Shown piece by piece: positions 6,217-24,411 of a DNA stretch of 41,156 nucleotides. The stretch is from a virus, in the UHGV virus genome UHGV-0247579; one strand, written 5' to 3'. The number at the start of each line of letters is the position of its first letter. The stretch's first letter is position 1. The notes beneath the pieces are model-generated. The model worked only from the letters and a program-made list of their open reading frames with translations, had not been told where the DNA came from and searched no databases. The position numbers and the translations under genes were made by a program.

Positions 6217-7749
6217 TTATTTCGGTACTTTCGGGTACACATCAATCATAAATTCAGAGTTTTTCTGGTTCTTTTTATTCCGTTTTGTTTTGGTCAGTAC
6301 AATCCGGTCGATCAGTTTCCTTAAAGCGCTGTTCTTTTCCGGGATAGTCAGGGAGTTCCATTCGCTTAACAAGTTCTTGCACTTCGGGACAAAATTCTTT
6401 CGATTTGCCTGCCTCGCAATCGTAGTATGTAAATCTTCCTGGGCAGCAGTGATATTGTTCATGCAGTCTCTGATCCGCTGTTCCAGTGCATTGGATCGTT
6501 CAATGAAAATCTCTTTCGTGTAAATTCCCTGCTCTAAAAAATCAAATAAGGATTCTCTCTGCTTCAAAAGCGTCTGATGTTCAGTCTCAAAATTTGTGAC
6601 GATCAATTCTTTTGCGGCAATGGCAGCAGTATCTTCCTCATGAGTGTCAGAAAATTCATACTTGGCTATGTAGTCTTTCAGCCATCCCAGAAGAGCTTCT
6701 TCCAGTTCATCAATCCGTATTCCGACCGTGGAACATTCGGTATACTGGCAGATCAGCACATCATAGGGCGTTTTCGTCTGCGCTTTCTTGCGGACCATAA
6801 GCCGGCCGCATTGCGAGCATCTGACCAGACCTGCAAATAAATTTTGGATCGGTCTGTCATTTCTGACCGGAGAGGAAAAACAGCCTTTTGGTTGATTTGC
6901 ACGTTTGAACAGGTCTGCGCTGATGCGTGGCTCCCATGCTGCATCTGCGAGAATATAATCCGTAGCATTCGGCCGGGACTTTACCACACGACCATCCTTT
7001 ACGGCTCTGACTGTCTTACGATATCCCCAACGGACTTTCCCAATGTTTGCCGGATTTGAGATGATACCCTTGAGGGTGGAGGGAGAGAACGGCTTTCCGC
7101 TCCTTGCAAGGATTCCCATATTGGACATATAGGTACAGGCTTTTTGGTATCCGTACTGCTTATTTCCACACAGATCATACATCAGATCGAGAACCGGAGC
7201 TTCTGTCTGGCTGGGAGTAAGAGAGTAGTGTTTTCCATCTGGTGCAATGATACGCTCCCATCCATAAGGAGCAACATTGCCAACGTAATAACCATCAGAA
7301 CTGGAACGTTCCCTGCCGCGCTGCATCCGGCGTTTAATTGTTGCGTATTCCCGGCGGCTCATGAATAAGCTGAACTCAAAATATTCATTGTCATATTCAT
7401 TAGCTGGGTCGTAGGTTTTATTCGGTGTTACAATCCGGGTGCCGGAATAGAAAAATGCACGCTGCACACGCCCCTGATCGATCGTATCACCTCTGGCCAG
7501 ACGATCTACGTCCATTACGAGGGCGCCATCCCACATACAGGCTTCTACCTCAGAGAGGACTTGCGTCATGACTGGTCGGGCATCGATACTGTCTCCGGAC
7601 ACAACTTCCCGGTAAATCGCACCGATCGGAAGAGAAAGCGTTTTGGCCAACTCCAATAGAGTGGTAATGTGGCGTTCCAGGACATCGATACCGAGTGCTT
7701 CCAGTTCAGCGTCTTTTCTGGATTTTCTGGCATAGATAAAATAAGACAT
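6217..7749 (-). CDS. Large serine recombinase (phage integrase)
   Basis: 510 aa. N-terminal resolvase catalytic domain (YARKSRKD...RLARG), a recombinase domain, a zinc ribbon (CSQCGRLM...CQYTEC) and a C-terminal coiled coil. Confidence 0.9.
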   Translation of the reverse strand: MSYFIYARKSRKDAELEALGIDVLERHITTLLELAKTLSLPIGAIYREVVSGDSIDARPVMTQVLSEVEACMWDGALVMDVDRLARGDTIDQGRVQRAFFYSGTRIVTPNKTYDPANEYDNEYFEFSLFMSRREYATIKRRMQRGRERSSSDGYYVGNVAPYGWERIIAPDGKHYSLTPSQTEAPVLDLMYDLCGNKQYGYQKACTYMSNMGILARSGKPFSPSTLKGIISNPANIGKVRWGYRKTVRAVKDGRVVKSRPNATDYILADAAWEPRISADLFKRANQPKGCFSSPVRNDRPIQNLFAGLVRCSQCGRLMVRKKAQTKTPYDVLICQYTECSTVGIRIDELEEALLGWLKDYIAKYEFSDTHEEDTAAIAAKELIVTNFETEHQTLLKQRESLFDFLEQGIYTKEIFIERSNALEQRIRDCMNNITAAQEDLHTTIARQANRKNFVPKCKNLLSEWNSLTIPEKNSALRKLIDRIVLTKTKRNKKNQKNSEFMIDVYPKVPK

Positions 7750-8164: not shown

Positions 8165-8484
8165 GATTTTTTCTCCTTTCTTGTCTCAAGATCCGATTCC
8201 CATTTTTCGGAATCAGGATAATATGCTGTTACGATCCAAAGTGTTTCCAAATTACTTCCAACTACTACGTGAAGGTATTGATTCTTGATCGAAAGACCAA
8301 GGATCAGACAACTTGGGAACGGATAGTCATCTGGGTATTGCTCAATTATTTTTCCACTTTGAATACAACTTATGACATCGTCTAGTAAAATTCCACGTTG
8401 CTCCAAACGTTTTGCCGCATGGAGTGTTATCTCAATATTTTCTAAAGAACATATTTCTTTTATAGAATCTATGGTAAGTTCCAA
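8161..8484 (-). CDS. DUF4258-family protein, putative toxin partner of the zinc-finger protein
   Basis: 107 aa with DUF4258-like motifs (HAAKRLEQRGI...LILG...LHVVVG...TAYYP). Confidence 0.55.
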   Translation of the reverse strand: MELTIDSIKEICSLENIEITLHAAKRLEQRGILLDDVISCIQSGKIIEQYPDDYPFPSCLILGLSIKNQYLHVVVGSNLETLWIVTAYYPDSEKWESDLETRKEKKS

Positions 8485-8502
8485 TAATGCACCTTCTTTC
8501 TT

Positions 8503-9048
8503 TTATTTCAATAAATCATCAATGCAGATCTCGAAATCCTCAAATATTTTTAATTTGAGAATATCGTGAAAAGGTACAATCACCGGCGCGACATCTTCCT
8601 CATATCGGTATACCGTTGTGCGTTCTCTGGCAGGATCCACAATCCAATACTCCCGAACACCTGCGTCAGTATAGAGCGTATTTTTGGTAGAATAATCCAT
8701 TTTACGGCTGCTCGGTGAAACGATTTCGATGATAAAGTCAGGTGCTCCTTCACAGCCACGGTGTGAAATTTTGTTAGAATTACAGACAATGCTAATATCA
8801 GGTTCTACATAGTTTGAATCATCGTCTTTAATGAAAACAGCAAATGGAGCAGGATAAACTTTACAATTACCGTGCTTTTTACTGATATAGTTTTGCAACT
8901 CAGTTGTAAATAAAGCAACTAATTCCTGATGCAATGGGGATGGCGGCGCCATGTTATAAATTTGTCCGTCAATCAGCTCCGCTCGTTGCCCATCTGGAAG
9001 AGCATAGATGTCATCGATTGTATGTGTAGTTGTTTTTAATAATGGCAT
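8503..9048 (-). CDS. Uma2-family (DUF820, PD-(D/E)xK-like) endonuclease
   Basis: 181 aa with the characteristic YALPDGQRAELIDGQIY...APP...H and PDFIIEIVSPSS...D...EYWIVDP motifs. Confidence 0.8.
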   Translation of the reverse strand: MPLLKTTTHTIDDIYALPDGQRAELIDGQIYNMAPPSPLHQELVALFTTELQNYISKKHGNCKVYPAPFAVFIKDDDSNYVEPDISIVCNSNKISHRGCEGAPDFIIEIVSPSSRKMDYSTKNTLYTDAGVREYWIVDPARERTTVYRYEEDVAPVIVPFHDILKLKIFEDFEICIDDLLK

Positions 9049-9231
9049 GATATCACATCCTTTCTTGATTTAATTTGAATTCTCCCAGTATTTTGTATTA
9101 TGTATAATCGACGAAACAGTTACACCTATCATGTAATTGCCTGCTGTGGAGCAGGGGGAGAAAAATTTACAATTTGTCTATTGATGTATACAATATATTT
9201 GAATATAATTAAGAAAAAAGGAGGGCTTGAT

Positions 9232-9486
9232 ATGAAAAAACATATTATTTATGTAGTAAATAGTTTAATTTTTATTTTATGTTTTCTTTTTATATTGAGC
9301 AGCTTTTTCAAAATTATATCACATACATGTATAGAAGCATATCTATCTGATTCTAATAGTCTAGTTATTGTTTGGATAGTTGGGATTGTTGTAGCAGTTA
9401 TTTTTACTCATCCTCTGTATCAGGAGATTCTTGCATGGAGGCTTCCTCTGAAAGAGTGGCTGCAGCTTCATCATCTAAAGCAATAG
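9232..9486 (+). CDS. Small membrane protein (85 aa)
   Basis: TTTACA-17-TACAAT promoter-like sequence and an AAAGGAGGG RBS upstream of the ATG. One strong TM helix. The 3' end overlaps the convergent 9404..10567 gene by about 80 bp, so the extent is uncertain. Confidence 0.35.
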   Translation: MKKHIIYVVNSLIFILCFLFILSSFFKIISHTCIEAYLSDSNSLVIVWIVGIVVAVIFTHPLYQEILAWRLPLKEWLQLHHLKQ

Positions 9487-10567
9487 GCTCGACTTCAAGA
9501 GCAACACATCCTGATGCTAAAGCATCAACTGGTCCACGTAAGGCTTCTGGATTGATTCCAGAGGCTTTAATTTTATTGTACAATTCGAGTTTCTTTTCAA
9601 GTACTTGCAATTCTTTTTCGTCTGCTTCGGCATGTTTTAATCTGTAATCATCTTTAGCTGATAAAATAGATTTTATAATTTCTATAATCCCTGGCAGTTT
9701 AAATGAAAAAGCGCTACCGCCACCTAGTAATATTAAAATTCCGAGTATGACAGTCCAGTTATTTGTCAAGAATTCTTTGACTTGATCTAATAAAAATATA
9801 ATGTCTCCCGGAGAGTTTAGTGTTACTTGAGTCGATATATTCTTTTCAGGAACTATTGATGATAAAAATTCCGTTGCTCCATAGAGAAGGCTATTAATAG
9901 AACGAGGACCAATAGGCGTTTGTTTTCGGACACTAAATACTACTGAAATATCATTTTCAAGCATGTAATAGTTGTACAAAGTATTTAATATTTGTTTGGC
10001 GTAGCTGTCTAAGCTTGAAATTCCGTGATAGTTTGAAATAGCTCTACATAAAGAATAGTTTAATTCTTCATTTTTTACAGTTCGAAGTAAAGTAATATGT
10101 CTTCTCTTTTTGTAAGGACATGACACATCGTTTATATCGACATCGTGGTTTTCGATTCGAAATATGATATTTTTTTCCAATTCTACAGTTTTGGTTTCGT
10201 CTTCAAAATAATCACCTGCAAGAGCAAAAGTAATATAGCTACTGCGTGCACTTGGAATAACTAGGATATCATCAGTATGTATTTCATTAATAAAAGAAAT
10301 ACATTTATTAATCACTGTAGAGGGACGTTGTATTTCATTGAACTCCATTAAGATATCATCTTTTAAAGAATCTCTGGAAGATTCGGAAAAGTCAGTGTTT
10401 TGAGTAATATTATTCCAAGCTAATGCAACAAAGCGCTTCGAAATAAACTCATTATAAAAATACCCTTTTTTTGTTCTTATCATCCAAAATCTTTTAGTGC
10501 GTGGAATAACAGGAACCGAAAAAGTATCAATCCAATTTAGCACTTCATTTTCTTCATGTAATTCCAT
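9404..10567 (-). CDS. Unknown 387-aa protein: about 270-aa N-terminal cytoplasmic domain, one TM segment, then a coiled-coil / acidic tail. Candidate superinfection-exclusion or abortive-infection factor
   Basis: Long ORF with RBS GGAGAAAAGAGGAGAAAATATT before the ATG. TM helix WTVILGILILLGGGSAFSF. AT-rich relative to the flanks. No family recognised from sequence. Confidence 0.6.
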   Translation of the reverse strand: MELHEENEVLNWIDTFSVPVIPRTKRFWMIRTKKGYFYNEFISKRFVALAWNNITQNTDFSESSRDSLKDDILMEFNEIQRPSTVINKCISFINEIHTDDILVIPSARSSYITFALAGDYFEDETKTVELEKNIIFRIENHDVDINDVSCPYKKRRHITLLRTVKNEELNYSLCRAISNYHGISSLDSYAKQILNTLYNYYMLENDISVVFSVRKQTPIGPRSINSLLYGATEFLSSIVPEKNISTQVTLNSPGDIIFLLDQVKEFLTNNWTVILGILILLGGGSAFSFKLPGIIEIIKSILSAKDDYRLKHAEADEKELQVLEKKLELYNKIKASGINPEALRGPVDALASGCVALEVEPIALDDEAAATLSEEASMQESPDTEDE

Positions 10568-10631
10568 AATATTTTCTCCTCTTTTCTCCTGTACCTTAAC
10601 ACCACTTTACTCTATATAAACGCCGAAGTGG

Positions 10632-11117
10632 TTATATCATTTCCATAACTGCTAAATTAGGAATAAAATAAATAACATAATTATCTAAAGTAGTATATTC
10701 ACCATATTTTCCTTTGTAACAGTCAATGGCTTCTTGCAGATACGTTTCTGTGACATGAAGATGTTCTGCAATCTCGTATCTATTCTGGCATCCAGCATTA
10801 AAAGCGGATATAATACCACGCAATCCGATCATCCGGTTATATCCATATAATCGTGCTTGTTGTTCCTGCTTTCTATTCCACGTATCTTTCATATCAAGGA
10901 TATTGCCTATAGATGTAAAATTGTGCCCAAGCTCTTCAGCGAGAACGCAGGCTTTTTCTGCAGATGTTTCCAAGTTATTTGATATTGCAATTCTGTTTCT
11001 ATATATTAGTCCATCGCTGCTGGATAGAGCCTTTTCGCGGACGATAAGTCCGCTGTTATTCGCCTCTTCTAAAAGCTCTTCATAAATTGTCATTGTATCA
11101 CTCCCATTCAGAGTCAT
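10632..11117 (-). CDS. ImmA/IrrE-family metallopeptidase (anti-repressor protease)
   Basis: 161 aa with an HEXXH-like motif AEELGHNF. Directly downstream of, and overlapping, the XRE repressor gene, as in ImmR/ImmA modules. Start uncertain. Confidence 0.75.
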   Translation of the reverse strand: MTLNGSDTMTIYEELLEEANNSGLIVREKALSSSDGLIYRNRIAISNNLETSAEKACVLAEELGHNFTSIGNILDMKDTWNRKQEQQARLYGYNRMIGLRGIISAFNAGCQNRYEIAEHLHVTETYLQEAIDCYKGKYGEYTTLDNYVIYFIPNLAVMEMI

Positions 11118-11595
11118 TCATCATAATGTCTTGATCATGTTTTCTCATTTCATCTGTTACTTTAATGTCGGTTCGTTCATGAGCTGCTAATACTTCTAAA
11201 TGTTTGTTGGATTGCTCAGGACATATGTTATATACTTTTGCCTCTTTTATTTCAGAAGTAGATATTGAATTTTCATATTCCTTATCTAAAACAAAATCAA
11301 CAACTTCTTTTCCGTGTGGGTTTAATTTGCGGTAGCGTTCTATGATGGTCCATTCCTTATTTGTGAATAATACATCTTCAACAGTATTTGAAAAAGTTTC
11401 CATTATATTATTACATTTGTAAATTTGGCAAAGCGCTAAGAACATGTCTGCATTTGCGGAGTTACGTCCACTTTCGTAGCCATAGAGTGTTTTATCAGAA
11501 ATATCAATATTAAAATTCTTCAGTCTATCAGCAACCTCTTTTCGAGTCATATTATTATTTTCTCTAAGAAGTTTTAACTTTTCTCCGATATTCAT
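11098..11595 (-). CDS. XRE-family HTH repressor (cI/ImmR-like)
   Basis: 165 aa with an N-terminal HTH (IGEKLKLLRENNNMTRKEVADRL...LYGYESG). Divergent from a Cro-like gene. Confidence 0.8.
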   Translation of the reverse strand: MNIGEKLKLLRENNNMTRKEVADRLKNFNIDISDKTLYGYESGRNSANADMFLALCQIYKCNNIMETFSNTVEDVLFTNKEWTIIERYRKLNPHGKEVVDFVLDKEYENSISTSEIKEAKVYNICPEQSNKHLEVLAAHERTDIKVTDEMRKHDQDIMMNDSEWE

Positions 11596-11690
11596 ATTAT
11601 CTCCACCTCACTTTTTCTTCAATATAACAAAAAATCTTGTGATAGTCAATTATATATCTTTGAAATAGAGAAAAATGTTTGTAAAATGTG

Positions 11691-11725
11691 TTGACAATCT
11701 CTAAAACAAAGAATATAATAATGCC
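11691..11725 (+). promoter_or_regulatory. Consensus promoter for the cro-like gene, with flanking short inverted repeats (candidate operators)
   Basis: TTGACA-17 bp-TATAAT. The inverted repeat ACAAAGAA...TTCTTTGT brackets the -10. Approximate coordinates. Confidence 0.55.
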
Positions 11726-11759
11726 AAGTTCTTTGTAACAGAGAAAAGAGGTGGTGAAA

Positions 11760-11981
11760 ATGGGAGCTACGAAGAATGTAGCAAGATATGTACAAGAGAA
11801 AGCAATAAATCTATCTGCAATGTCAAGGGCAACGGGGATTCCATATAGTGCTTTGTACGACAGTCTTGCGAATAAAAAAAGGGAACGGCCATTATCTATG
11901 GATGAAGCAATTATTATATGTAAATTTCTTGGAGTGAACCCGATGGATTTTGCAGAGGAGAAACAGAATGAAAGAAAATGA
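11760..11981 (+). CDS. Cro-like XRE-family HTH regulator
   Basis: 73 aa from the ATG at 11760 (RBS AAGAGGTGGTG). HTH segment NLSAMSRATGIPYSALYDSL. Confidence 0.7.
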   Translation: MGATKNVARYVQEKAINLSAMSRATGIPYSALYDSLANKKRERPLSMDEAIIICKFLGVNPMDFAEEKQNERK

Positions 11982-12129
11982 AAAAATGGAAGTACAGGTA
12001 TTAGTTCATACAGAAGATGCTTGTGAAAAAGTAAAAGAGCTGATAGAAGAATTGAAAAAAGCCAATTCATTAGCAGATGAATTGGCCGAAAAAATAAAAG
12101 ATAACCTAAAAATTGATATCAAGATCTAA
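11968..12129 (+). CDS. Small coiled-coil protein (53 aa)
   Basis: ATG overlaps the end of the cro-like gene. Charged helical sequence. Short ORF, not in the track. Confidence 0.3.
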   Translation: MKENEKMEVQVLVHTEDACEKVKELIEELKKANSLADELAEKIKDNLKIDIKI

Positions 12130-12303
12130 TACAACTTCGTTTTCACAATGCGGACAAATATTATTGCCAGGATAGGCATCAAACAATTTTTCGCAATGTG
12201 GACATTCAACCTCATAAGAATCTGATAATAAAGATTCTTTAGTCTGATCTATGATGTCAGACATAATTTCATCAGGATTGAAATCTGTTTTGAATGTAAT
12301 CAT
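12106..12303 (-). CDS. Small zinc-ribbon protein (CPHC...CPHC)
   Basis: Two CxxC pairs. Internal start MITFK chosen (track ORF 12106..12321). Confidence 0.45.
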   Translation of the reverse strand: MITFKTDFNPDEIMSDIIDQTKESLLSDSYEVECPHCEKLFDAYPGNNICPHCENEVVLDLDINF

Positions 12304-12511
12304 TAAATCACCGCCTTTCATACAAAATTAAAACAAATGTTCTTCGAGTAGAATAATACTAAAAATTTTGCGTGTCAAGAAAAATACTAAATACTGTGTA
12401 AAAAAATACTGTTGACGCAAGATATAGTGAAAAAGGTGAGTGGTGAGAATGCAAGAAATTGATGGAGGAAGAATATCAAATTATCTGTAGGAAATTTCTG
12501 ATACAGGAATT

Positions 12512-12622
12512 ATGAAGTCTACGTTTACAGACTGGAAAAGAGGCAGGAGTAAACCTAAAGCAGAAAAACTAAAAATCCTAGCAGATTACTTCGGGGTATC
12601 AGTGGATTATTTTCTTGAGTAG
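12512..12622 (+). pseudogene. Remnant of an XRE-HTH gene (C-terminal half only: ...STFTDWKRGRSKPKAEKLKILADYFGVSVDYFLE)
   Basis: Only helix 3 plus the tail of an HTH_3 domain is encoded. The upstream frame is interrupted by a stop (MQEIDGGRISNYL*). Confidence 0.45.
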
Positions 12623-12636
12623 GAAGCGAGGAAGAA

Positions 12637-12828
12637 ATGGGAATACGAAAAGAGATCATAGTATATGTAGACAAAGAGTTGACGAAAAAGGAGAGAAAAA
12701 ATTATAAAAAAGAAAATCCAGGTAAACGTCTGTGCTTTCGGTTGCGTTACCCGAATTTTCTTAAGTACCTTATGTTGATATCATATGCAGTACTTTTTCT
12801 TAGTGCAATGATAAGAATCCTACAATGA
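12637..12828 (+). CDS. Hypothetical small protein (63 aa) with a C-terminal hydrophobic segment
   Basis: Preceded by the junction repeat and RBS GAGGAAG. ATG start. Confidence 0.4.
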   Translation: MGIRKEIIVYVDKELTKKERKNYKKENPGKRLCFRLRYPNFLKYLMLISYAVLFLSAMIRILQ

Positions 12829-13147
12829 CGGAAATTAAGGCGATCAATGTACCAATCATCCATCTGCGGGATCCGCGTAACTCTGTTTCAATCAGAACAT
12901 CTCCAGATGGGAGAGTGATGAGATAACCATCCAGGCCATTGTATTCTAATCCTTTGTCTGGAGAATCATCCATTTTGCAAGCCACAGAACGGCAAGAAAT
13001 AAATTTTTGATCAATGAGTTGAGGGATAATCTCATCTGCGTAGTTTCTATCTATACCTCTATGTTTAAAACATAGCAAATCCAAACAAGAAACATAAGGG
13101 TGTTTATAAATATATTTCAAAATACGAATGGATTTCTTATTTAGCAT
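12800..13147 (-). CDS. Hypothetical protein (115 aa) with a C-terminal TM helix
   Basis: RBS AAAGGAGA 8 nt before the internal ATG (MLNKKSIRILKYIY...). Track ORF 12800..13177. Confidence 0.4.
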   Translation of the reverse strand: MLNKKSIRILKYIYKHPYVSCLDLLCFKHRGIDRNYADEIIPQLIDQKFISCRSVACKMDDSPDKGLEYNGLDGYLITLPSGDVLIETELRGSRRWMIGTLIALISVIVGFLSLH

Positions 13148-13312
13148 CGGAGCATCTCCTTTCATAATACTCGGCATTGGCAGATGCCTGTATCTACAGT
13201 ATAGGAGACAAAAGGGTAAAAGACAACAGATATGAAGTTTATTGAAAGAAGTATGTTAGGGAAAACAGGTGTAAGTGTTGAGTATTTTGGGAGTAGGAAG
13301 CGAGGAGAGGAA

Positions 13313-13490
13313 GATGGTGAGAAAAAGAAAAAGACATATAGGAGTTGATTTGGTAATAACAACTATATGCCTTATGGCTATTACAACATTATTAGGAAAG
13401 GAGATAAATCTTACAAAGTTAGATATTACATACTTATATATGATTGTTTTTCTATGCGTTCAATCAATTAGTCAAAAAGGAGGAGATTAA
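13313..13490 (+). CDS. Hypothetical small membrane protein (58 aa)
   Basis: ATG preceded by the junction repeat and AGGAGAGGAAG. Two hydrophobic helices. Confidence 0.35.
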
Positions 13491-13991
13491 TGCTTTGATT
13501 TCTTCACTATAAAGATTTAAGAAGTAAGCAATCAACCATCCAATTAAATTTACAAATTTGGTAGAACCTTCTTTGAAATCAAATCCTATCCAGTTAAGAA
13601 ACGTGGAAGGGATACGAAGAAACTTTTTTATGGAAACAATAGGGTTCAATGCCTTTAAGAAATTTGAAACAGCATAATTACGTTCCATACGAATATCGTT
13701 ATAAATTCGGATTGCATTTGCGTAAGTAGTTTCTTGAGAAGCGCCGTATTCGAGAGTTGGGGTATAAAATCCGCAATATTTAACAATTTTGGGATAATAA
13801 AATAACAAACTATTAAGAGAATCGGCGTAATCATCAAGCAAAACAAGCGCTCTGTGAGAGCTAGGTTTTGCAGATGCTAGGTATTTTTCTATGACATTAA
13901 TTATGGAATCAATATCTTTGATTTTAAAGAAAGAGTGAAAAATGGTGCATATGTAAATTAAAGTTGGGATAGTAAGTAAATATTTAAGCAT
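13464..13991 (-). CDS. Hypothetical protein (175 aa), N-terminal signal/TM, AT-rich
   Basis: RBS AAAGGAAATAACT before the ATG (MLKYLLTIPTLIY...). Track ORF 13464..14207, trimmed to the internal start. Confidence 0.4.
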   Translation of the reverse strand: MLKYLLTIPTLIYICTIFHSFFKIKDIDSIINVIEKYLASAKPSSHRALVLLDDYADSLNSLLFYYPKIVKYCGFYTPTLEYGASQETTYANAIRIYNDIRMERNYAVSNFLKALNPIVSIKKFLRIPSTFLNWIGFDFKEGSTKFVNLIGWLIAYFLNLYSEEIKALISSFLTN

Positions 13992-14152
13992 AGTTATTTC
14001 CTTTCGATATTTTGTATGAACAGTATAACATGTGGAAAACAAGAATGTAACTACTGAGTATTTTTTGGAGTAGGAACAGGAAAGCAACTCGGAAATAAAG
14101 GCTGATGGACAACATACATAGGACAACCAACCTGCATACATAATAGCGAGGT

Positions 14153-14311
14153 GATGATTTTGATCGTAGAAACAGTAAAAGTAAAAAATGCAACAATCCG
14201 GGTACATGATGACTGTTATGCAGAACGAACAGAAGAAGAGGTGAAAAGCCTGATAGACGGATGCTGCAGGATCATCCAGGAGGCATTATTACGAAAAGAG
14301 AAAACCGCCTG
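14153..14311 (+). CDS. Hypothetical small protein (52 aa)
   Basis: RBS GAGGTG before the ATG. Follows the third junction repeat. Confidence 0.3.
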
Positions 14312-14336
14312 AAGGCGGGGGAAGGTGGACAAACAT

Positions 14337-14561
14337 ATGAAAAACAAAAGATTAACCATACAGCGAATCGATAAGTTTATAAAGGAACTAAGCTTGACCG
14401 AAAGAGTAAATGGCTACTCGGAACAGCAGAAACAGCATGCGATTGCCTGTTTAAACAATTACTGCAGGGAGTTGGAGTATCAAGGAAGAAAATCAGTAAA
14501 AATCAAAGGAGCGACCAATGGACCAGAGAATCTTGAACATGACGGCAGGACAAGTCATTGA
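14337..14561 (+). CDS. Hypothetical early protein (74 aa)
   Basis: RBS GGGGGAAGGTGG before the ATG at 14337. Confidence 0.45.
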   Translation: MKNKRLTIQRIDKFIKELSLTERVNGYSEQQKQHAIACLNNYCRELEYQGRKSVKIKGATNGPENLEHDGRTSH

Positions 14562-14675
14562 GTACAGCAGGCTTGTCAGCAGAAGAGAGGAACTGCGGCA
14601 GTTTCCGGAAGAGGAAGGAGCTGTTGCAGAGTTGAAGCTAATCGAAGAAAGGATCAAAGAACTTGGATTTGAATG
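14517..14675 (+). CDS. Hypothetical small protein (52 aa)
   Basis: Strong RBS AAAGGAG 6 nt before the ATG. Overlaps the 3' end of the previous ORF. Confidence 0.35.
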
Positions 14676-14697
14676 AAGAGAAGGAGAGGAAACAGAT

Positions 14698-14982
14698 ATG
14701 GATCATTCGCTGGAAATCCGGAAAGATCCGGAGCGAGTATGGGACGTACCAGGAAGCGAAGCAGGTAGCAGAAGAGATCGGGGGAGAGTACATCATCGTA
14801 TGAGTTTCCGAAAGAGAAGACAGCTTCGGTATGTAGAAGAATTACTGAGGATCCTGGAAGCCACATTGGGAATCTGTGCGGTCATGCTGATGGGAACCGG
14901 ATCCTTATGGATAGGGATGATCATCATGACAGCAGGATTAGAACTCAGCTGCAGGTACATAGAAAAAAGCATAAAAAATTAG
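14698..14982 (+). CDS. Hypothetical membrane protein (94 aa)
   Basis: RBS GAGAGGAAACAGATATG. C-terminal TM helices. Confidence 0.45.
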   Translation: MDHSLEIRKDPERVWDVPGSEAGSRRDRGRVHHRMSFRKRRQLRYVEELLRILEATLGICAVMLMGTGSLWIGMIIMTAGLELSCRYIEKSIKN

Positions 14983-15006
14983 TGCATCTGCCGCAAACAG
15001 ATGCAC
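14982..15006 (+). terminator. Perfect 9-bp stem hairpin terminator
   Basis: GTGCATCTG-ccgcaaa-CAGATGCAC, followed by a T-containing tract. Confidence 0.5.
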
Positions 15007-15012
15007 CGGATA

Positions 15013-15115
15013 TTTTGCCAATACAAACAAAATAAAAACTCATTTATATTGTACACCTGTATTGGCAAAATGTCAAAGAAAATGAGAGCAAAAAGCTCCC
15101 GTTTTTCACTTGATA
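15013..15115 (+). promoter_or_regulatory. Putative rolling-circle double-strand origin: 13-bp perfect inverted repeat plus a CTTGATA nick-type motif upstream of rep
   Basis: TTTTGCCAATACA (15013-15025) pairs with TGTATTGGCAAAA (15058-15070). CTTGATA at about 15109-15115 matches the pC194/pUB110-family nick sequence, and the Rep gene starts at 15144. Confidence 0.45.
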
Positions 15116-15143
15116 AGTATATTAAACTTAGGAGCAAAACAGG

Positions 15144-15866
15144 ATGTATAAACAAAAGAGTTATGACCTGGGAGACATCAGAGAAGTGATGGAGTATCAC
15201 AATGGGAGATATGGTGCTCCGGGAATGCCGAGAATGAAAAAGAAGAAAGCCACACCGGAGCAGATCCGAAAGGTGAATCAGTGGAATAAAGAACGGCAGT
15301 GCTGGAGAAAGATGAAGCTGAATTTCCAGGAGAATGACTACTGGGTGACATTGACTTATAAATTGGAGAACCGGCCACAGGATATGAAAGAAGCGGTCAA
15401 AGACATACGAAAGTGGATTCAGAAAGTACGTGCACAATACAAAAAACAGGAAGTGGAGTTGAAATGGATGCTGCATACCGAGATTGGAAGCCGGGGTGGG
15501 GTTCATCACCATCTGGTCATCAACCGGATTCCGGATGCAGATCTGATCATGCGCAAAGCATGGGAAAAGGGAGGCGTCCACATCGATCTGTTGTATGACG
15601 AGGGCGGATTGCGGAAACTGGCTGAGTATTTAAGTAAAACGCCGGACGGAGAAAACAAGCTGAAAGAGAGTCGGTACTCCTGCAGCAGGAATTTAAAGAT
15701 TCCAGTGGCAGAAGTGAAGGTTTACAAAAGGAAAACATGGAAAGACGAACCGAAGCCGCAAAAAGGATACTATCTTGACAAAGAAACGTATCATGAGGGA
15801 ATCAATCCGGTAACAGGATATAAATACCGAAGATACATCCTGATCCGTTTGAACAGGAGAATTTGA
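15144..15866 (+). CDS. HUH-superfamily rolling-circle replication initiator (Rep_1, pC194/pUB110-like)
   Basis: Motif 1 WVTLTY (FLTLT-like), motif 2 GGVHHHLVIN (HUH), motif 3 region KLAEYLSKT (E..Y..K). Confidence 0.65.
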   Translation: MYKQKSYDLGDIREVMEYHNGRYGAPGMPRMKKKKATPEQIRKVNQWNKERQCWRKMKLNFQENDYWVTLTYKLENRPQDMKEAVKDIRKWIQKVRAQYKKQEVELKWMLHTEIGSRGGVHHHLVINRIPDADLIMRKAWEKGGVHIDLLYDEGGLRKLAEYLSKTPDGENKLKESRYSCSRNLKIPVAEVKVYKRKTWKDEPKPQKGYYLDKETYHEGINPVTGYKYRRYILIRLNRRI

Positions 15867-15867
15867 T

Positions 15868-16305
15868 ATGAAAGAGGTAAATATTTACATAAGGACAAGT
15901 CTGACAGGTCCATGTATCAAAGATGGAAGATGGGCGGCCGCAATGGAATGTCAGACAAGCAAAGGACCGGCGGTCAAAGGAATTTGCGGGGAAGAACAGG
16001 AGACGACCTATTATCGCCTGGTGCTGCTTGGAATCGTGAAATCCTTGAAAATACTAAATGCGCCGTGCAATGTGACCCTGTATACGGACTGTATTTTTAT
16101 CAAGAACATGATCGAAAACGGGAAGCCGGAGCAGTGGAAGCGGGCGGAATGGAGAAAACCGTCCGGGAAAGAGGTGAAAAACCAGGAATTGTGGCAGCAG
16201 TATCAGGCGTTGGCAGAGCGGCATGAAATAGCCGTCAGATTTAGTAAACATCACGATTACGTGGAAAAATTAGAGGGATTACTGGAGGAAAAACAGCATG
16301 TTTGA
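15868..16305 (+). CDS. RNase H-like fold protein, apparently catalytically degenerate
   Basis: Alignable to RNase HI (LYTDCIFIKNMIENGKPEQWKRAEWRKPSGKEVKNQELWQQ vs STDSQYV...W...W....VKNVDLWQ). The positions of D10 and E48 are R and L. Confidence 0.5.
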   Translation: MKEVNIYIRTSLTGPCIKDGRWAAAMECQTSKGPAVKGICGEEQETTYYRLVLLGIVKSLKILNAPCNVTLYTDCIFIKNMIENGKPEQWKRAEWRKPSGKEVKNQELWQQYQALAERHEIAVRFSKHHDYVEKLEGLLEEKQHV

Positions 16306-16753
16306 TGTATTTGGGAATTTTGATTCCGTAGAAGAATTGAATGCATGTGCAAAAGGACTTTTGGAGGAGCAGGATCTGGAGCATTTAAAAGTGCTGGCAG
16401 AGGAAAACGGGATTCCAGATGGAATCCGGGAAGTATATGAGCAGCATCTGTCGGAAGAACTGGTAGATTCAGTAAATGCGGCTATCGGAAAGCTGCAGGT
16501 TGAGTTAAAGGAGGAAACAGACGGGATGCCGGCAGGAGAGATCGTGTCGTATCTGTCTATGAGATGTTTTGAAAAAGAAATTCTGGCCAGAGCAGTAAGA
16601 AGAAAGAACCGGACACTCAAAGAATGTCTGCAGAATATCCGAAAAGAAGCGGAAAAAAGAGTCAAAGAAAGAAGAGGGGCACAAATGGTGGCAATGCCGG
16701 ATCTGGAAGTATTTGCCATGGCAGAAGAATACTATCTGGAGGCGGAGAAATGA
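16298..16753 (+). CDS. Hypothetical phage protein (151 aa)
   Basis: ORF coupled to the upstream and downstream genes (overlaps). Acidic/helical. Confidence 0.45.
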   Translation: MFDVFGNFDSVEELNACAKGLLEEQDLEHLKVLAEENGIPDGIREVYEQHLSEELVDSVNAAIGKLQVELKEETDGMPAGEIVSYLSMRCFEKEILARAVRRKNRTLKECLQNIRKEAEKRVKERRGAQMVAMPDLEVFAMAEEYYLEAEK

Positions 16754-23607: not shown

Positions 23608-23681
23608 TCGGACATAGCTCAGTCGGTTAGAGCAGAAGCCTTATAAGCTGTGTGTCACGGGTTCGATTCCCGTTGTCCGGA
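23608..23681 (+). tRNA. tRNA-like gene, anticodon TAT (Ile, AUA-decoding) inferred. No encoded CCA
   Basis: Cloverleaf by hand: acceptor TCGGACA/TGTCCGG (U1.G72), D arm GCTC-AGTCGGTTA-GAGC, anticodon arm GAAGC-CTTATAA-GCTGT (one A.G mismatch), T arm ACGGG-TTCGATT-CCCGT. Coordinates +/-2. Confidence 0.5.
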
Positions 23682-24325: not shown

Positions 24326-24397
24326 TAGCAGGATAGAGCAGTGGAAGCTCGTCAGTCTCCTTAGCTGAAGGTCGAAGGTTCGATTCCTTCTCCTGCA
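24326..24397 (+). tRNA. tRNA-like gene, anticodon CCT (Arg, AGG-decoding) inferred. No encoded CCA
   Basis: Acceptor AGCAGGA/TCCTGCA (A1.A72 mismatch), D arm GAGC-AGTGGAA-GCTC, anticodon arm TCAGT-CTCCTTA-GCTGA (U at position 37), variable AGGTC, T arm GAAGG-TTCGATT-CCTTC. Immediately preceded by the GTGCGACATCGCAC palindrome. Coordinates +/-2. Confidence 0.5.
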
Positions 24398-24411
24398 ATT
24401 GAGGTGAGAAT

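What the first reader, a model, noticed from the sequence alone, without database searches (positions are those of the whole stretch)
12106..14320. AT-rich mosaic of small bidirectional ORFs delimited by three copies of a junction repeat derived from the 3' end of an HTH gene
Seen in sequence: three degenerate copies of about 30 bp of the form GTATTTT(T)(G/C)(G/T)GAGTAGGAAG/CAGGA lie at about 12602..12635, 13270..13303 and 14045..14075. Each encodes the tail of an HTH_3 domain (...GVSVDYFLE*, ...GVSVEYFGS..., ...EYFLE*), followed by an SD-like GGAAGCGAGGA and a new small ORF. Only fragments of the HTH genes remain (for example 12512..12622). Genes between the repeats are on both strands, mostly small membrane or Zn-ribbon proteins, with lower GC. 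This looks like repeated illegitimate or site-specific insertion of cargo at one conserved junction, a moron-accretion hotspot downstream of cro.
Basis: seen in the sequence. Interest (0 to 1): 0.6.

Follow-up and report, generated by a model that had tools for sequence, protein, structure and literature searches.

The report
Recombination junctions flanking prophage accessory genes
The three repeats are real leftovers of small regulator (HTH) genes, and together with a second, much more widespread repeat (a portable promoter with an RNA hairpin) they mark where related gut-bacterial phages swap small accessory genes by recombination.

Summary
TATTTTN{2,3}GAGTAGGAA occurs three times on the + strand (12608, 13283, 14059), against none in 100 shuffles. 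Each copy is the last codons of an XRE-type HTH gene plus a strong ribosome-binding leader that ends at the next ATG ("element A").

In 25 relatives whose replication module is 85-97% identical, the cro-to-replication interval has 19 gene architectures and about 52 ORF families. Only short junction sequences stay conserved. Every near-identical segment the window shares with a relative ends in A or a sister element, and one crossover maps to a 22-nt identity tract inside A1.

It reads TTG-17 nt-TATACT, then a covarying 4-6 bp hairpin with loop CYGCCA, then GAAAGGAG and ATG. I found 293 copies in 207 loci of mainly Lachnospiraceae phages and prophages. They form same-strand arrays of up to five, always between the lysogeny and replication modules, and head at least 44 unrelated small proteins. 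One relative carries a B1/B2 hybrid with a 1157-bp cassette block missing.

Best reading: a hyperplastic accessory-gene ("moron") region shuffled by homologous recombination at conserved regulatory cassettes, analogous to T4-type PeSLs. I found no support for site-specific insertion.

The parts
12496..12636 (+). Element A, copy 1: the 3' two-thirds of a cro-type XRE HTH gene (stop TAG 12620-12622) plus the 14-nt SD leader GAAGCGAGGAAGAA, ending at ATG 12637. The 5' part of the gene has been replaced; 12449-12495 is unrelated sequence with an in-frame TAG at 12488.
   Evidence: Pfam HTH_3 positions 23-55 only. 93-96% identical to the intact cro-type genes of L001/L003/L029/L033 from 12496 onward. 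The window switches from L037-like to L043-like within about 12516-12539.
13268..13313 (+). Element A, copy 2: a vestige (..GVSVEYF, frameshifted) plus the SD leader GGAAGCGAGGAGAGGAAG, ending at ATG 13314. It is fused to element B through the pseudo-ORF 13232-13348.
   Evidence: The same B-A fusion is present in L020 and L035/L036, where all differences in the mini-ORF are non-synonymous. The left breakpoint of the L038-like segment is at 13289-13295.
14046..14080 (+). Element A, copy 3: a vestige (TEYFLE*, stop 14071-14073) fused to the degenerate cassette B'.
   Evidence: Homology with L038 ends at 14076 and homology with the L004-type replication module starts at 14085.
13144..13236 (-). 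Element B, a portable promoter-leader cassette: -35 TTGTCT (13226-13221), 17-nt spacer, -10 TATACT (13203-13198), hairpin GGCAUCUGCCAAUGCC (13188-13173), SD GAAAGGAG (13162-13155), ATG 13147.
   Evidence: Covariance model 87.9 bits, E 3e-15. Found by the promoter scan. Hairpin covariation in two data sets. 293 copies in 207 loci.
12800..13147 (-). B-driven cargo gene: 115 aa with a C-terminal hydrophobic segment, function unknown.
   Evidence: ORF. No Pfam, PHROG or PADLOC match. Sits directly downstream of B.
13988..14052 (-). B', a degenerate B without the hairpin: GTTACA-18 nt-TATACT, SD GAAAGGA, ATG 13991.
   Evidence: Model score 13.3 bits, E about 1. Promoter scan. Aligns with B-A fusions.
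13464..13991 (-). Cargo gene behind B' (175 aa, phrog_18631, function unknown); possibly under relaxed constraint.
   Evidence: Against L038: 21 nt differences spread 7/7/7 over the codon positions, dN/dS about 0.5.
12637..12828 (+). Small + strand ORF (63 aa) that starts right after A copy 1. Its 3' end overlaps the cargo gene convergently.
   Evidence: No family match.
13314..13490 (+). Small + strand membrane ORF (58 aa) that starts right after A copy 2.
   Evidence: Against L038: 5 nt differences, 0 aa differences (dN 0, dS 0.15), so it is coding.
12060..12378 (-). Independent minus-strand unit: promoter-like TTGACA-17 nt-TATTCT (12378-12350), Zn-ribbon gene 12106-12321 (phrog_9188), terminator-like hairpin 12087-12060.
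14085..14160 (+). Element D: the conserved leader at the left edge of the conserved replication block, upstream of the 53-aa ORF 14151-14312.
   Evidence: 93-98% identical in many relatives; shared high-identity segments start at 14085.
10577..10642 (-). Element C: a junction in the lysogeny operon. The stop of the ImmA-like gene is followed by a hairpin AAC(C)GC-UNCG-GCGUU, an SD and the ATG of a variable minus-strand gene. It is the left boundary of the exchangeable immunity module.

Best explanation
The interval is the hyperplastic accessory-gene (moron) region of a temperate, Lachnospiraceae-type prophage. It lies between cro (11760-11981) and the replication block that starts at 14085. 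Gene modules here are gained, lost and exchanged between related phages by homologous recombination at short conserved regulatory sequences.

The window's three copies are scars:
- A1 is a cro-type HTH gene that lost its 5' part when the immunity module between elements C and A was replaced.
- A2 and A3 are HTH tails fused to the promoter cassettes B and B' after deletion of the rest of the gene.

Element B is a compact sigma-A-type promoter with a 5'-proximal RNA hairpin and an SD. It drives minus-strand cargo genes, which run in the same direction as cI and int and against the lytic genes, so they are presumably expressed in the lysogen.

Shown here: the repeats, their origin from HTH genes, cargo turnover, crossovers inside A and B, hairpin covariation, the fixed genomic slot, and purifying selection on cargo.

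Inferred, not shown: promoter activity and the transcription start, the role of the hairpin (mRNA stabilisation or a binding site), expression in the lysogen, and which recombination enzymes act.
For: 1. The repeat is not chance: 3 matches against 0 in 100 shuffles.
2. A copy 1 matches the C-terminal part of HTH_3. Relatives have intact HTH genes with the same tail, in two codon-distinct alleles (GTATCAGTGGATTAT and GTAAGTGTTGAGTAT) that encode the same VSV(D/E)Y.
3. Conservation of A stops at the ATG of at least 10 different downstream genes.
4. The window is a patchwork: 8400-10642 is 99.9% L043, 10609-12626 is 98.7% L037, 12496-13295 is 99.6% L043, 13289-14076 is 95.3% L038, and 14085-16400 is 97% L004. 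All internal breakpoints fall in C, A1, A2 or A3.
5. The crossover inside A1 maps between diagnostic SNPs, in a 22-nt identity tract.
6. The B of L009 is an exact hybrid of L004 B1 (left) and B2 (right). The crossover lies in a 35-nt identical core and a 1157-bp block is absent.
7. 19 architectures and about 52 ORF families occur in 25 relatives.
8. B is present as 293 copies in 207 loci. All 86 adjacent pairs are on the same strand, with a median spacing of 718 bp.
9. Int, ImmA and cI are always on one side of the array, and Rep, RNaseH and PcfK/J always on the other.
10. At least 44 unrelated cargo families follow B, with dN/dS of 0.05-0.21.
11. The hairpin is 93.6% and 93.8% paired, against 20-49% in slid controls, with 5-6 pair types at three positions and 0 of 500 shuffles reaching the observed score, in two independent sets.
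12. -35 TTG, -10 TATA.T, the SD and the ATG stay 83-100% conserved in the 30 copies that were not picked by the search pattern.
13. 31 of 98 cargo genes have a terminator-like hairpin just after the stop codon, against 6 of 98 in shuffled sequence.
Against: - There are no expression data, so promoter, transcription start and lysogenic expression are all in silico.
- The G-U versus A-C test for which strand folds did not replicate: 8 vs 1 in the viral set but 9 vs 16 in the genome set. Strand assignment therefore rests on the promoter and SD context and on the asymmetric conserved loop.
- The single-sequence fold of the window's B is not exceptional (z = -1.2).
- B loci were collected with a sequence pattern, so invariance at the pattern positions is partly ascertainment.
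- ORF calls in the relatives are crude (longest-ORF greedy).
- No single-strand-annealing recombinase was recognised in this phage; only an SSB was found. The enzyme behind the exchanges is unknown.
- Conservation of A and B may be purely functional, with recombination as a passive by-product.
Confidence: 0.75

Rival explanations
1. Dedicated cassette mobility. Cargo would be inserted at the junction by a site-specific or single-strand mechanism. Examples are an integron-like recombinase acting on the folded hairpin, or the phage's HUH-type Rep (ORF2/G2P) nicking the B hairpin loop and transferring strands between same-strand copies.
For: - B copies form same-strand arrays with unit lengths of 400-1400 bp.
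- The hairpin has a conserved asymmetric loop, as nick sites and attC sites do.
- A Rep ORF2/G2P gene lies next to the array in at least 67 loci.
- Conservation of A ends sharply at the ATG.
Against: - The two mapped crossovers lie inside 22-35-nt identity tracts, as expected for homologous exchange.
- The left edges of A vary over 100 nt.
- The stem is only 4-6 bp, and it sits between a canonical -10 box and an SD, which a promoter-leader explains fully.
- No IntI-type gene is present; the only recombinase is a serine integrase 5 kb away.
- B also occurs in Ruminococcus gnavus phages, where the annotated neighbourhood shows no Rep of this type.
Confidence: 0.07
2. In-place duplication and decay. 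The three copies would be remnants of HTH paralogues duplicated within this lineage. The interval would evolve by local duplication and deletion, not by exchange between phages.
For: - Several relatives have 2-3 intact or partial HTH genes with the same tail.
- B-A fusions look like internal deletions.
- The L004/L009 difference can be read as a simple deletion between direct repeats.
Against: - The window's segments have their nearest relatives (95-99.9%) in different phages whose other segments are unrelated.
- The immunity module between C and A differs completely between the window and L043, although both flanks are 99.6-99.9% identical.
- Two codon-distinct A alleles coexist.
Confidence: 0.06
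3. The palindrome in B is a DNA operator for a dimeric regulator, for example one of the small HTH proteins encoded in the region, rather than an RNA hairpin.
For: - It lies just downstream of the -10 box, a classic repressor position.
- Some variants are perfect palindromes (GGTGTTGCAACACC).
- The wobble-based strand test is inconclusive.
- HTH genes sit next to B in the window's lineage.
Against: - The inner stem positions vary freely, with 5-6 pair types, while the central 6 nt are conserved and not palindromic (CYGCCA). This is the opposite of an operator, where half-sites are conserved and the spacer is free.
- Only 5 of 111 unique B copies have an HTH tail nearby.
- Different stems coexist within one phage.
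Confidence: 0.1
4. The three copies are chance, low-complexity similarity.
For: The region is AT- and purine-rich, and SD-like strings are common.
Against: 0 matches in 100 shuffles against 3 observed. The same 60-70-nt sequence is conserved at 85-98% in dozens of relatives, often in 2-3 copies per genome.
Confidence: 0.01

Closest known systems
PeSL (promoter-early stem-loop) regulatory cassettes of T4-type phages (Arbiol et al. 2010, PMC2839356; Comeau et al. 2014, PMC4122927)
   Same: Both are short conserved cassettes made of a sigma-70-like promoter plus a stem-loop. Both are scattered in many copies through hyperplastic regions full of small genes of unknown function. In both, recombination between copies causes insertions, deletions and replacements between close relatives (one search is the equivalent observation here).
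   Different: - In PeSLs the stem-loop is an effective terminator and the promoter is an early lytic one. In B the hairpin lies downstream of the -10 box in the 5' leader, has no U-tract, shows covariation with a conserved loop, and is followed by a conserved SD.
- B drives genes antiparallel to the lytic genes of temperate phages of Gram-positive gut anaerobes.
- The mini-circles described for PeSLs were not tested here.
Morons of lambdoid phages (Hendrix/Juhala concept; from my own knowledge)
   Same: Extra genes with their own promoter, often a terminator, and deviating base composition. They are present or absent between otherwise similar phages and sit among early genes.
   Different: Classic morons each have their own unrelated promoter. 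Here at least 44 unrelated genes share one homologous promoter-leader, arranged in arrays at a fixed genomic slot.
Modular mosaicism at conserved linker or boundary sequences (Botstein's modular theory; lambdoid and dairy-phage comparisons; from my own knowledge)
   Same: Exchange boundaries coincide with short sequences conserved between otherwise unrelated modules. For A these are the end of one gene plus the translation start region of the next.
   Different: Here the linkers are identifiable regulatory parts and pseudogene tails, and they are multi-copy within one genome.
Integron gene cassettes and attC sites
   Same: Arrays of small, diverse, mostly unknown genes in one orientation, separated by a repeated element that contains a hairpin.
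   Different: There is no IntI. The hairpin is 4-6 bp rather than a long imperfect attC stem. Every cassette has its own promoter. Crossovers look homologous.
5'-terminal stabiliser stem-loops of Gram-positive mRNAs (for example ermC and aprE leaders, phage SP82; from my own knowledge)
   Same: A short stable hairpin within a few nucleotides of the predicted 5' end, followed by a strong SD.
   Different: A pure stabiliser would not need the conserved loop sequence (CYGCCA) or the invariant flanks (UAC..GAGUA), so a sequence-specific partner is possible.

Membership tests
XRE / Cro-C1 HTH_3 gene (for the repeat A) | Complete HTH_3 domain (about 55 residues) in an open reading frame | tested here: not met
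   Copy 1 matches only profile positions 23-55 and has an upstream in-frame TAG. Copies 2 and 3 keep only 3-7 codons. They are remnants; intact homologues exist in relatives.
Moron | Own promoter upstream of the extra gene | tested here: met
   In silico only. TTGTCT-17 nt-TATACT lies upstream of 12800-13147. -35 TTG and -10 TATA.T are 87-100% conserved in copies not selected by the search pattern.
Moron | Terminator downstream | tested here: inconclusive
   31 of 98 B cargo genes have a terminator-like hairpin near the stop, against 6 of 98 in shuffled sequence. In the window, the first minus-strand terminator-like site downstream of the B cargo is at 12087-12060, after the Zn-ribbon gene.
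Moron | Present or absent between related phages whose flanking genes are otherwise adjacent | tested here: met
   L004 versus L009: a 1157-bp block is present or absent between two B copies. 19 architectures in 25 relatives.
Moron | Expressed from the repressed prophage | not testable with these tools
   Orientation the same as cI and int fits this, but there are no transcript data.
PeSL cassette | Sigma-70-like promoter plus stem-loop in one short conserved multi-copy cassette within a hyperplastic region | tested here: met
PeSL cassette | The stem-loop acts as a transcription terminator | tested here: not met
   The hairpin lies between the -10 box and the SD and is followed by GAGUAUUAUGAAAGG, with no U-tract.
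PeSL cassette | Recombination between copies generates indels and replacements | tested here: met
   Hybrid B in L009.
PeSL cassette | Circular excision products (mini-circles) | not testable with these tools
   Needs PCR or long reads on phage DNA.
Integron cassette array | Adjacent IntI tyrosine recombinase and attC sites | tested here: not met
   The only recombinase is a large serine recombinase at 6217-7749. The neighbours are ImmA, cI, Cro, Rep and RNaseH. The hairpin stem is 4-6 bp.
Any Rfam RNA family (for B) | Match to a curated covariance model | tested here: not met
   No credible hit in 9000-16000 at E up to 5. The three matches were eukaryotic miRNA/snoRNA models far below their gathering scores.

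The most novel reading that the evidence does not exclude
Element B would be an undescribed cis-regulatory RNA class of gut Clostridia phages. The 5' hairpin, with its conserved CYGCCA loop and UAC..GAGUA flanks, would be the docking site of a shared trans-acting factor, either a phage or host RNA-binding protein or an RNase. All accessory genes behind B would then form one co-regulated "moron regulon" that switches between lysogeny and induction. The same cassette would also act as the recombination handle that lets any new gene join that regulon.
Probability: 0.25. Interest if true: 0.7.

Novelty: new variant of a known kind. Interest (0 to 1): 0.55.

Why it matters
Most genes of gut phages have no known function, and it is unclear how temperate phages of the dominant gut Firmicutes pick up and express accessory genes.

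This region gives a concrete, searchable handle. A roughly 90-nt promoter-hairpin cassette, for which a covariance model was built here, flags small accessory genes. At least 44 families were seen in this small sample, one of them a PADLOC defence candidate. The cassette occupies a fixed slot in mainly Lachnospiraceae (pro)phages.

The result also extends the idea of regulatory cassettes as shuffling points, known from lytic T4-type phages, to temperate phages of Gram-positive anaerobes.

The cassette occurs in cultured Ruminococcus gnavus phages, so promoter activity, hairpin function and cassette exchange can be tested directly.

Tried and rejected
- Near-identity search of 11000-15200 against GenBank phages found no match. 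The relatives came from IMG/VR through the Rep protein instead.
- The first exact pattern for A (..GCGAGGA) was too strict and found only L043. A degenerate pattern found 25 stretches, nearly all from the same lineage.
- Rfam gave nothing for the region.
- I first concluded from G-U versus A-C counts that the hairpin folds on the cargo-sense strand (viral set, 8 vs 1). The independent genome set did not confirm this (9 vs 16, mostly G-to-A decay in weak copies), so I withdrew the argument.
- The single-sequence fold of the window's B is unremarkable (z = -1.2). Only comparative data support the hairpin.
- Pfam, PHROG and PADLOC searches on the window's cargo genes gave no function.
- I looked for homology between window cargo and L215 cargo to show promoter swapping. 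The similarities were too weak to use.
- A search for a recombinase among the downstream genes found only SSB and HNH.
- Association of A with B outside this lineage was rejected: only 5 of 111 unique B copies have an A tail nearby.
- The R. gnavus phage paper does not mention promoters or this motif.
Full report
**Context**

The window is a prophage.
- A large serine recombinase lies at 6217-7749 (-), followed by an ImmA-like peptidase (10632-11117, -), a cI-like HTH repressor (11098-11595, -) and a Cro-like HTH gene (11760-11981, +).
- Further right come a Rep ORF2/G2P-type protein (15144-15866, +), RNase H, PcfK and PcfJ, SSB, terminase and structural genes.
- The finding therefore lies between cro and the replication genes.
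- GC is 0.32-0.36 from about 9000 to 14400, against 0.40-0.46 elsewhere.

**1. The observation**

The three copies are real.
- TATTTTN{2,3}GAGTAGGAA matches three times, all on the + strand, at 12608, 13283 and 14059. None of 100 dinucleotide-preserving shuffles gave a match.
- Aligned, the copies share ..GTnnnnGTnGAnTATTTTnnnGAGTAGGAA. Copies 1 and 2 also share GCGAGGA.
- The reading frames give ..ADYFGVSVDYFLE*..GVSVEYFGS.. (one base lost, so the stop is missed) and TEYFLE*.
- The stretch 12449-12622 matches Pfam HTH_3 only over profile positions 23-55 (E 1.6e-5) and has an in-frame TAG at 12488, so it is a truncated gene.

**2. Relatives**

The Rep protein retrieved 42 IMG/VR loci.
- In these loci the block from 14085, 14342 or 14397 to 16400 is 85-97% identical to the window.
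- The interval to its left shares only short pieces, several of them in 2-4 copies per genome:
  - A (12563-12631)
  - B (13154-13237)
  - C (10577-10642)
  - D (14085-14157)
- Among 25 loci with a complete interval there are 19 gene orders and about 52 ORF families, from crude ORF calls.
- The interval is therefore neither syntenic nor invariant, and the junctions are conserved.

**3. Element A**

The consensus is AAAAATCCTAGCAGATTACTTCGGyGTATCAGTGGATTATTTTCTTGAGTAGGAAGCGAGGyGAGGAAGATG.
- This is the last roughly 20 codons of an XRE HTH gene, its stop codon, and a leader containing GAGGTGA, a near-perfect Shine-Dalgarno sequence. Conservation ends at the ATG of the next gene, and at least 10 different genes follow it.
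- The upstream context varies. It can be an intact cro-type HTH gene, an intact 60-aa second HTH gene, or a direct fusion to element B with the rest of the HTH gene deleted.
- Two alleles encode the same residues with different codons (TCA versus AGT for Ser), which shows past selection at the protein level.
- A is essentially restricted to this phage lineage: 25 stretches in IMG/VR.

**4. The junctions are exchange points**

The window's nearest relatives change segment by segment:

| Window segment | Nearest relative | Identity |
|---|---|---|
| 8400-10642 | L043 | 99.9% |
| 10609-12626 | L037 | 98.7% |
| 12496-13295 | L043 | 99.6% (ends at the contig end) |
| 13289-14076 | L038 | 95.3% |
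| 14085-16400 | L004 group | 97% |

- All internal breakpoints lie in C, A1, A2 or A3.
- In a three-way alignment the window carries the L037 variant up to about 12516 and the L043 variants from about 12539 onward. The crossover therefore lies in a 22-nt identity tract inside the HTH tail.
- L043 has a different immunity module between C and A, with an intact HTH gene. In the window and in L037 the 5' part of that gene has been replaced.

**5.

Read on the minus strand, 13236-13144 is: TTGTCT, a 17-nt spacer, TATACT, the hairpin GGCAUCUGCCAAUGCC, GAGUAUUAUGAAAGGAG, then ATG at 13147 of a 115-aa ORF.

Distribution:
These are almost all Lachnospiraceae: Dorea, Blautia, Sellimonas, Faecalimonas, Mediterraneibacter, Acetatifactor and others.
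- B also occurs in cultured R. gnavus phages and in one Acetoanaerobium phage.
- A profile search found 293 copies in 207 loci. 58 loci have 2-5 copies, all 86 adjacent pairs are on the same strand, and the median spacing is 718 bp.

Position and cargo:
- Wherever they can be recognised, Int, ImmA and cI lie on one side of the array on the cargo strand. Rep, RNaseH, PcfK and PcfJ lie on the other side on the opposite strand.
- 111 unique copies head at least 44 unrelated protein families.
- These families are under purifying selection, with dN/dS of 0.05-0.21.
- Most have no known function. The exceptions are DUF2513, DUF2321 and a trypsin-like protein that matches PADLOC candidate PDC-S45.
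- About a third have a terminator-like hairpin right after the stop codon.

The hairpin:
- It covaries. In the viral set 93.6% of cells are paired, against 20-33% in slid controls, with 5-6 pair types at three positions and 0 of 500 shuffles reaching the score.
- The result replicates in the genome set, using copies aligned by the model: 93.8% paired, 0 of 500.
- 66 distinct hairpins have stems of 4-6 bp and a conserved asymmetric loop, C-Y-G-C-C-A.
- -35 TTG, -10 TATA.T, the SD and the ATG remain 83-100% conserved in the 30 copies that do not match the search pattern.
- No Rfam family matches.

Caveat: my first argument that G-U pairs identify the folding strand failed to replicate. The RNA reading rests on the promoter and SD context and on the asymmetric loop.

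**6. B is also a crossover point**

L004 has two B copies, and L009 has one. The left half and left flank of the L009 copy equal B1, and its right half and right flank equal B2. The 1157 bp between them, carrying five small ORFs, are absent.

**7. Reading the window**

- A2 sits 30 nt from B, joined by a pseudo-ORF whose differences in the relatives are all non-synonymous.
- A3 sits next to B', a B that has lost its hairpin (13.3 bits).
- The gene behind B' (13464-13991) looks relaxed, with dN/dS about 0.5 and substitutions spread evenly over the codon positions. The + ORF 13314-13490 is clearly coding, with 5 synonymous and 0 non-synonymous differences.
- The Zn-ribbon gene 12106-12321 has its own promoter-like and terminator-like sites.

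**8. Comparison with known systems**

- The closest described system is the PeSL cassette of T4-type phages. These are sigma-70-like promoters plus stem-loops, multi-copy in hyperplastic regions, that mediate shuffling (PMC2839356, PMC4122927).
- B differs in several ways. Its hairpin is a covarying 5'-leader element, not a terminator. It carries a conserved SD. It drives genes against the lytic direction. It belongs to temperate phages of Gram-positive anaerobes.
- The units fit the moron concept, except that unrelated genes share one homologous promoter-leader.
- Integron membership fails: there is no IntI, there are no attC-like sites, and each cassette has its own promoter.

**Verdict**

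It is wrong, or at least unsupported, about site-specific or illegitimate insertion. It is incomplete, because the dominant junction element is B.

Noticed in passing
window 10577-10642 (minus strand); also L002, L029, L034, L040 and L205, with two copies each: Element C. Directly after the ImmA-like stop codon come a conserved hairpin AAC(C)GC-UNCG-GCGUU, an SD and the ATG of a variable minus-strand gene. At least 10 different gene families follow it in the relatives. It occurs 1-2 times per locus and is also present in unrelated B-carrying phages. It looks like a second cassette system, inside the lysogeny operon.
   Followed up: partly
window 8503-9048 (-) and 9404-10567 (-): The two genes downstream of element C match the PADLOC candidate defence families PDC-S03 (E 3e-45) and PDC-S02 (E 8e-11). 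The C-bounded slot therefore seems to carry defence candidates.
   Followed up: partly
window 12488-12490: An in-frame TAG lies inside the HTH remnant (MQEIDGGRISNYL*EISDTG..). I read it as a pseudogene scar. Stop-codon recoding was not examined.
   Followed up: no
window 12376-12412: Three direct AATACT(G) repeats (AAAATACTAAATACTGTGTAAAAAAATACTGTTGAC) lie upstream of the HTH remnant and overlap the Zn-ribbon gene promoter region. They look operator-like.
   Followed up: no
window 14982-15006 and 15009-15074: A strong bidirectional terminator-like palindrome (GTGCATCTGCCGCAAACAGATGCAC) and a 17-nt inverted repeat (94% complementary, 32-nt spacer) lie just upstream of the Rep ORF2/G2P gene. 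They could be a terminator plus an origin or Rep-binding region.
   Followed up: no
window 14105-14145 (element D): Direct repeats GGACAAC..CATACATA occur twice in the conserved leader of the replication block. Function unknown.
   Followed up: no
window 23608-23681 and 24326-24399: The phage encodes tRNA-Ile(TAT) and tRNA-Arg(CCT), next to an HNH endonuclease and the terminase genes.
   Followed up: no
L198 (MAG labelled Bacteroides fragilis) and H1 (Acetoanaerobium phage ANDSL2_ph1, PP197248.1, 25414-25470): B-like copies occur outside Lachnospiraceae. The Bacteroides MAG hit may be a binning error. The Acetoanaerobium phage hit (90% over 57 nt) suggests the cassette extends to other Clostridia.
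   Followed up: no
L215 1090-3764 (mouse-gut Lachnospiraceae genome): The clearest array: five B cassettes alternate with small + strand ORFs between a cro-like gene and a homologue of the window's 53-aa ORF 14151-14312.
   Followed up: partly
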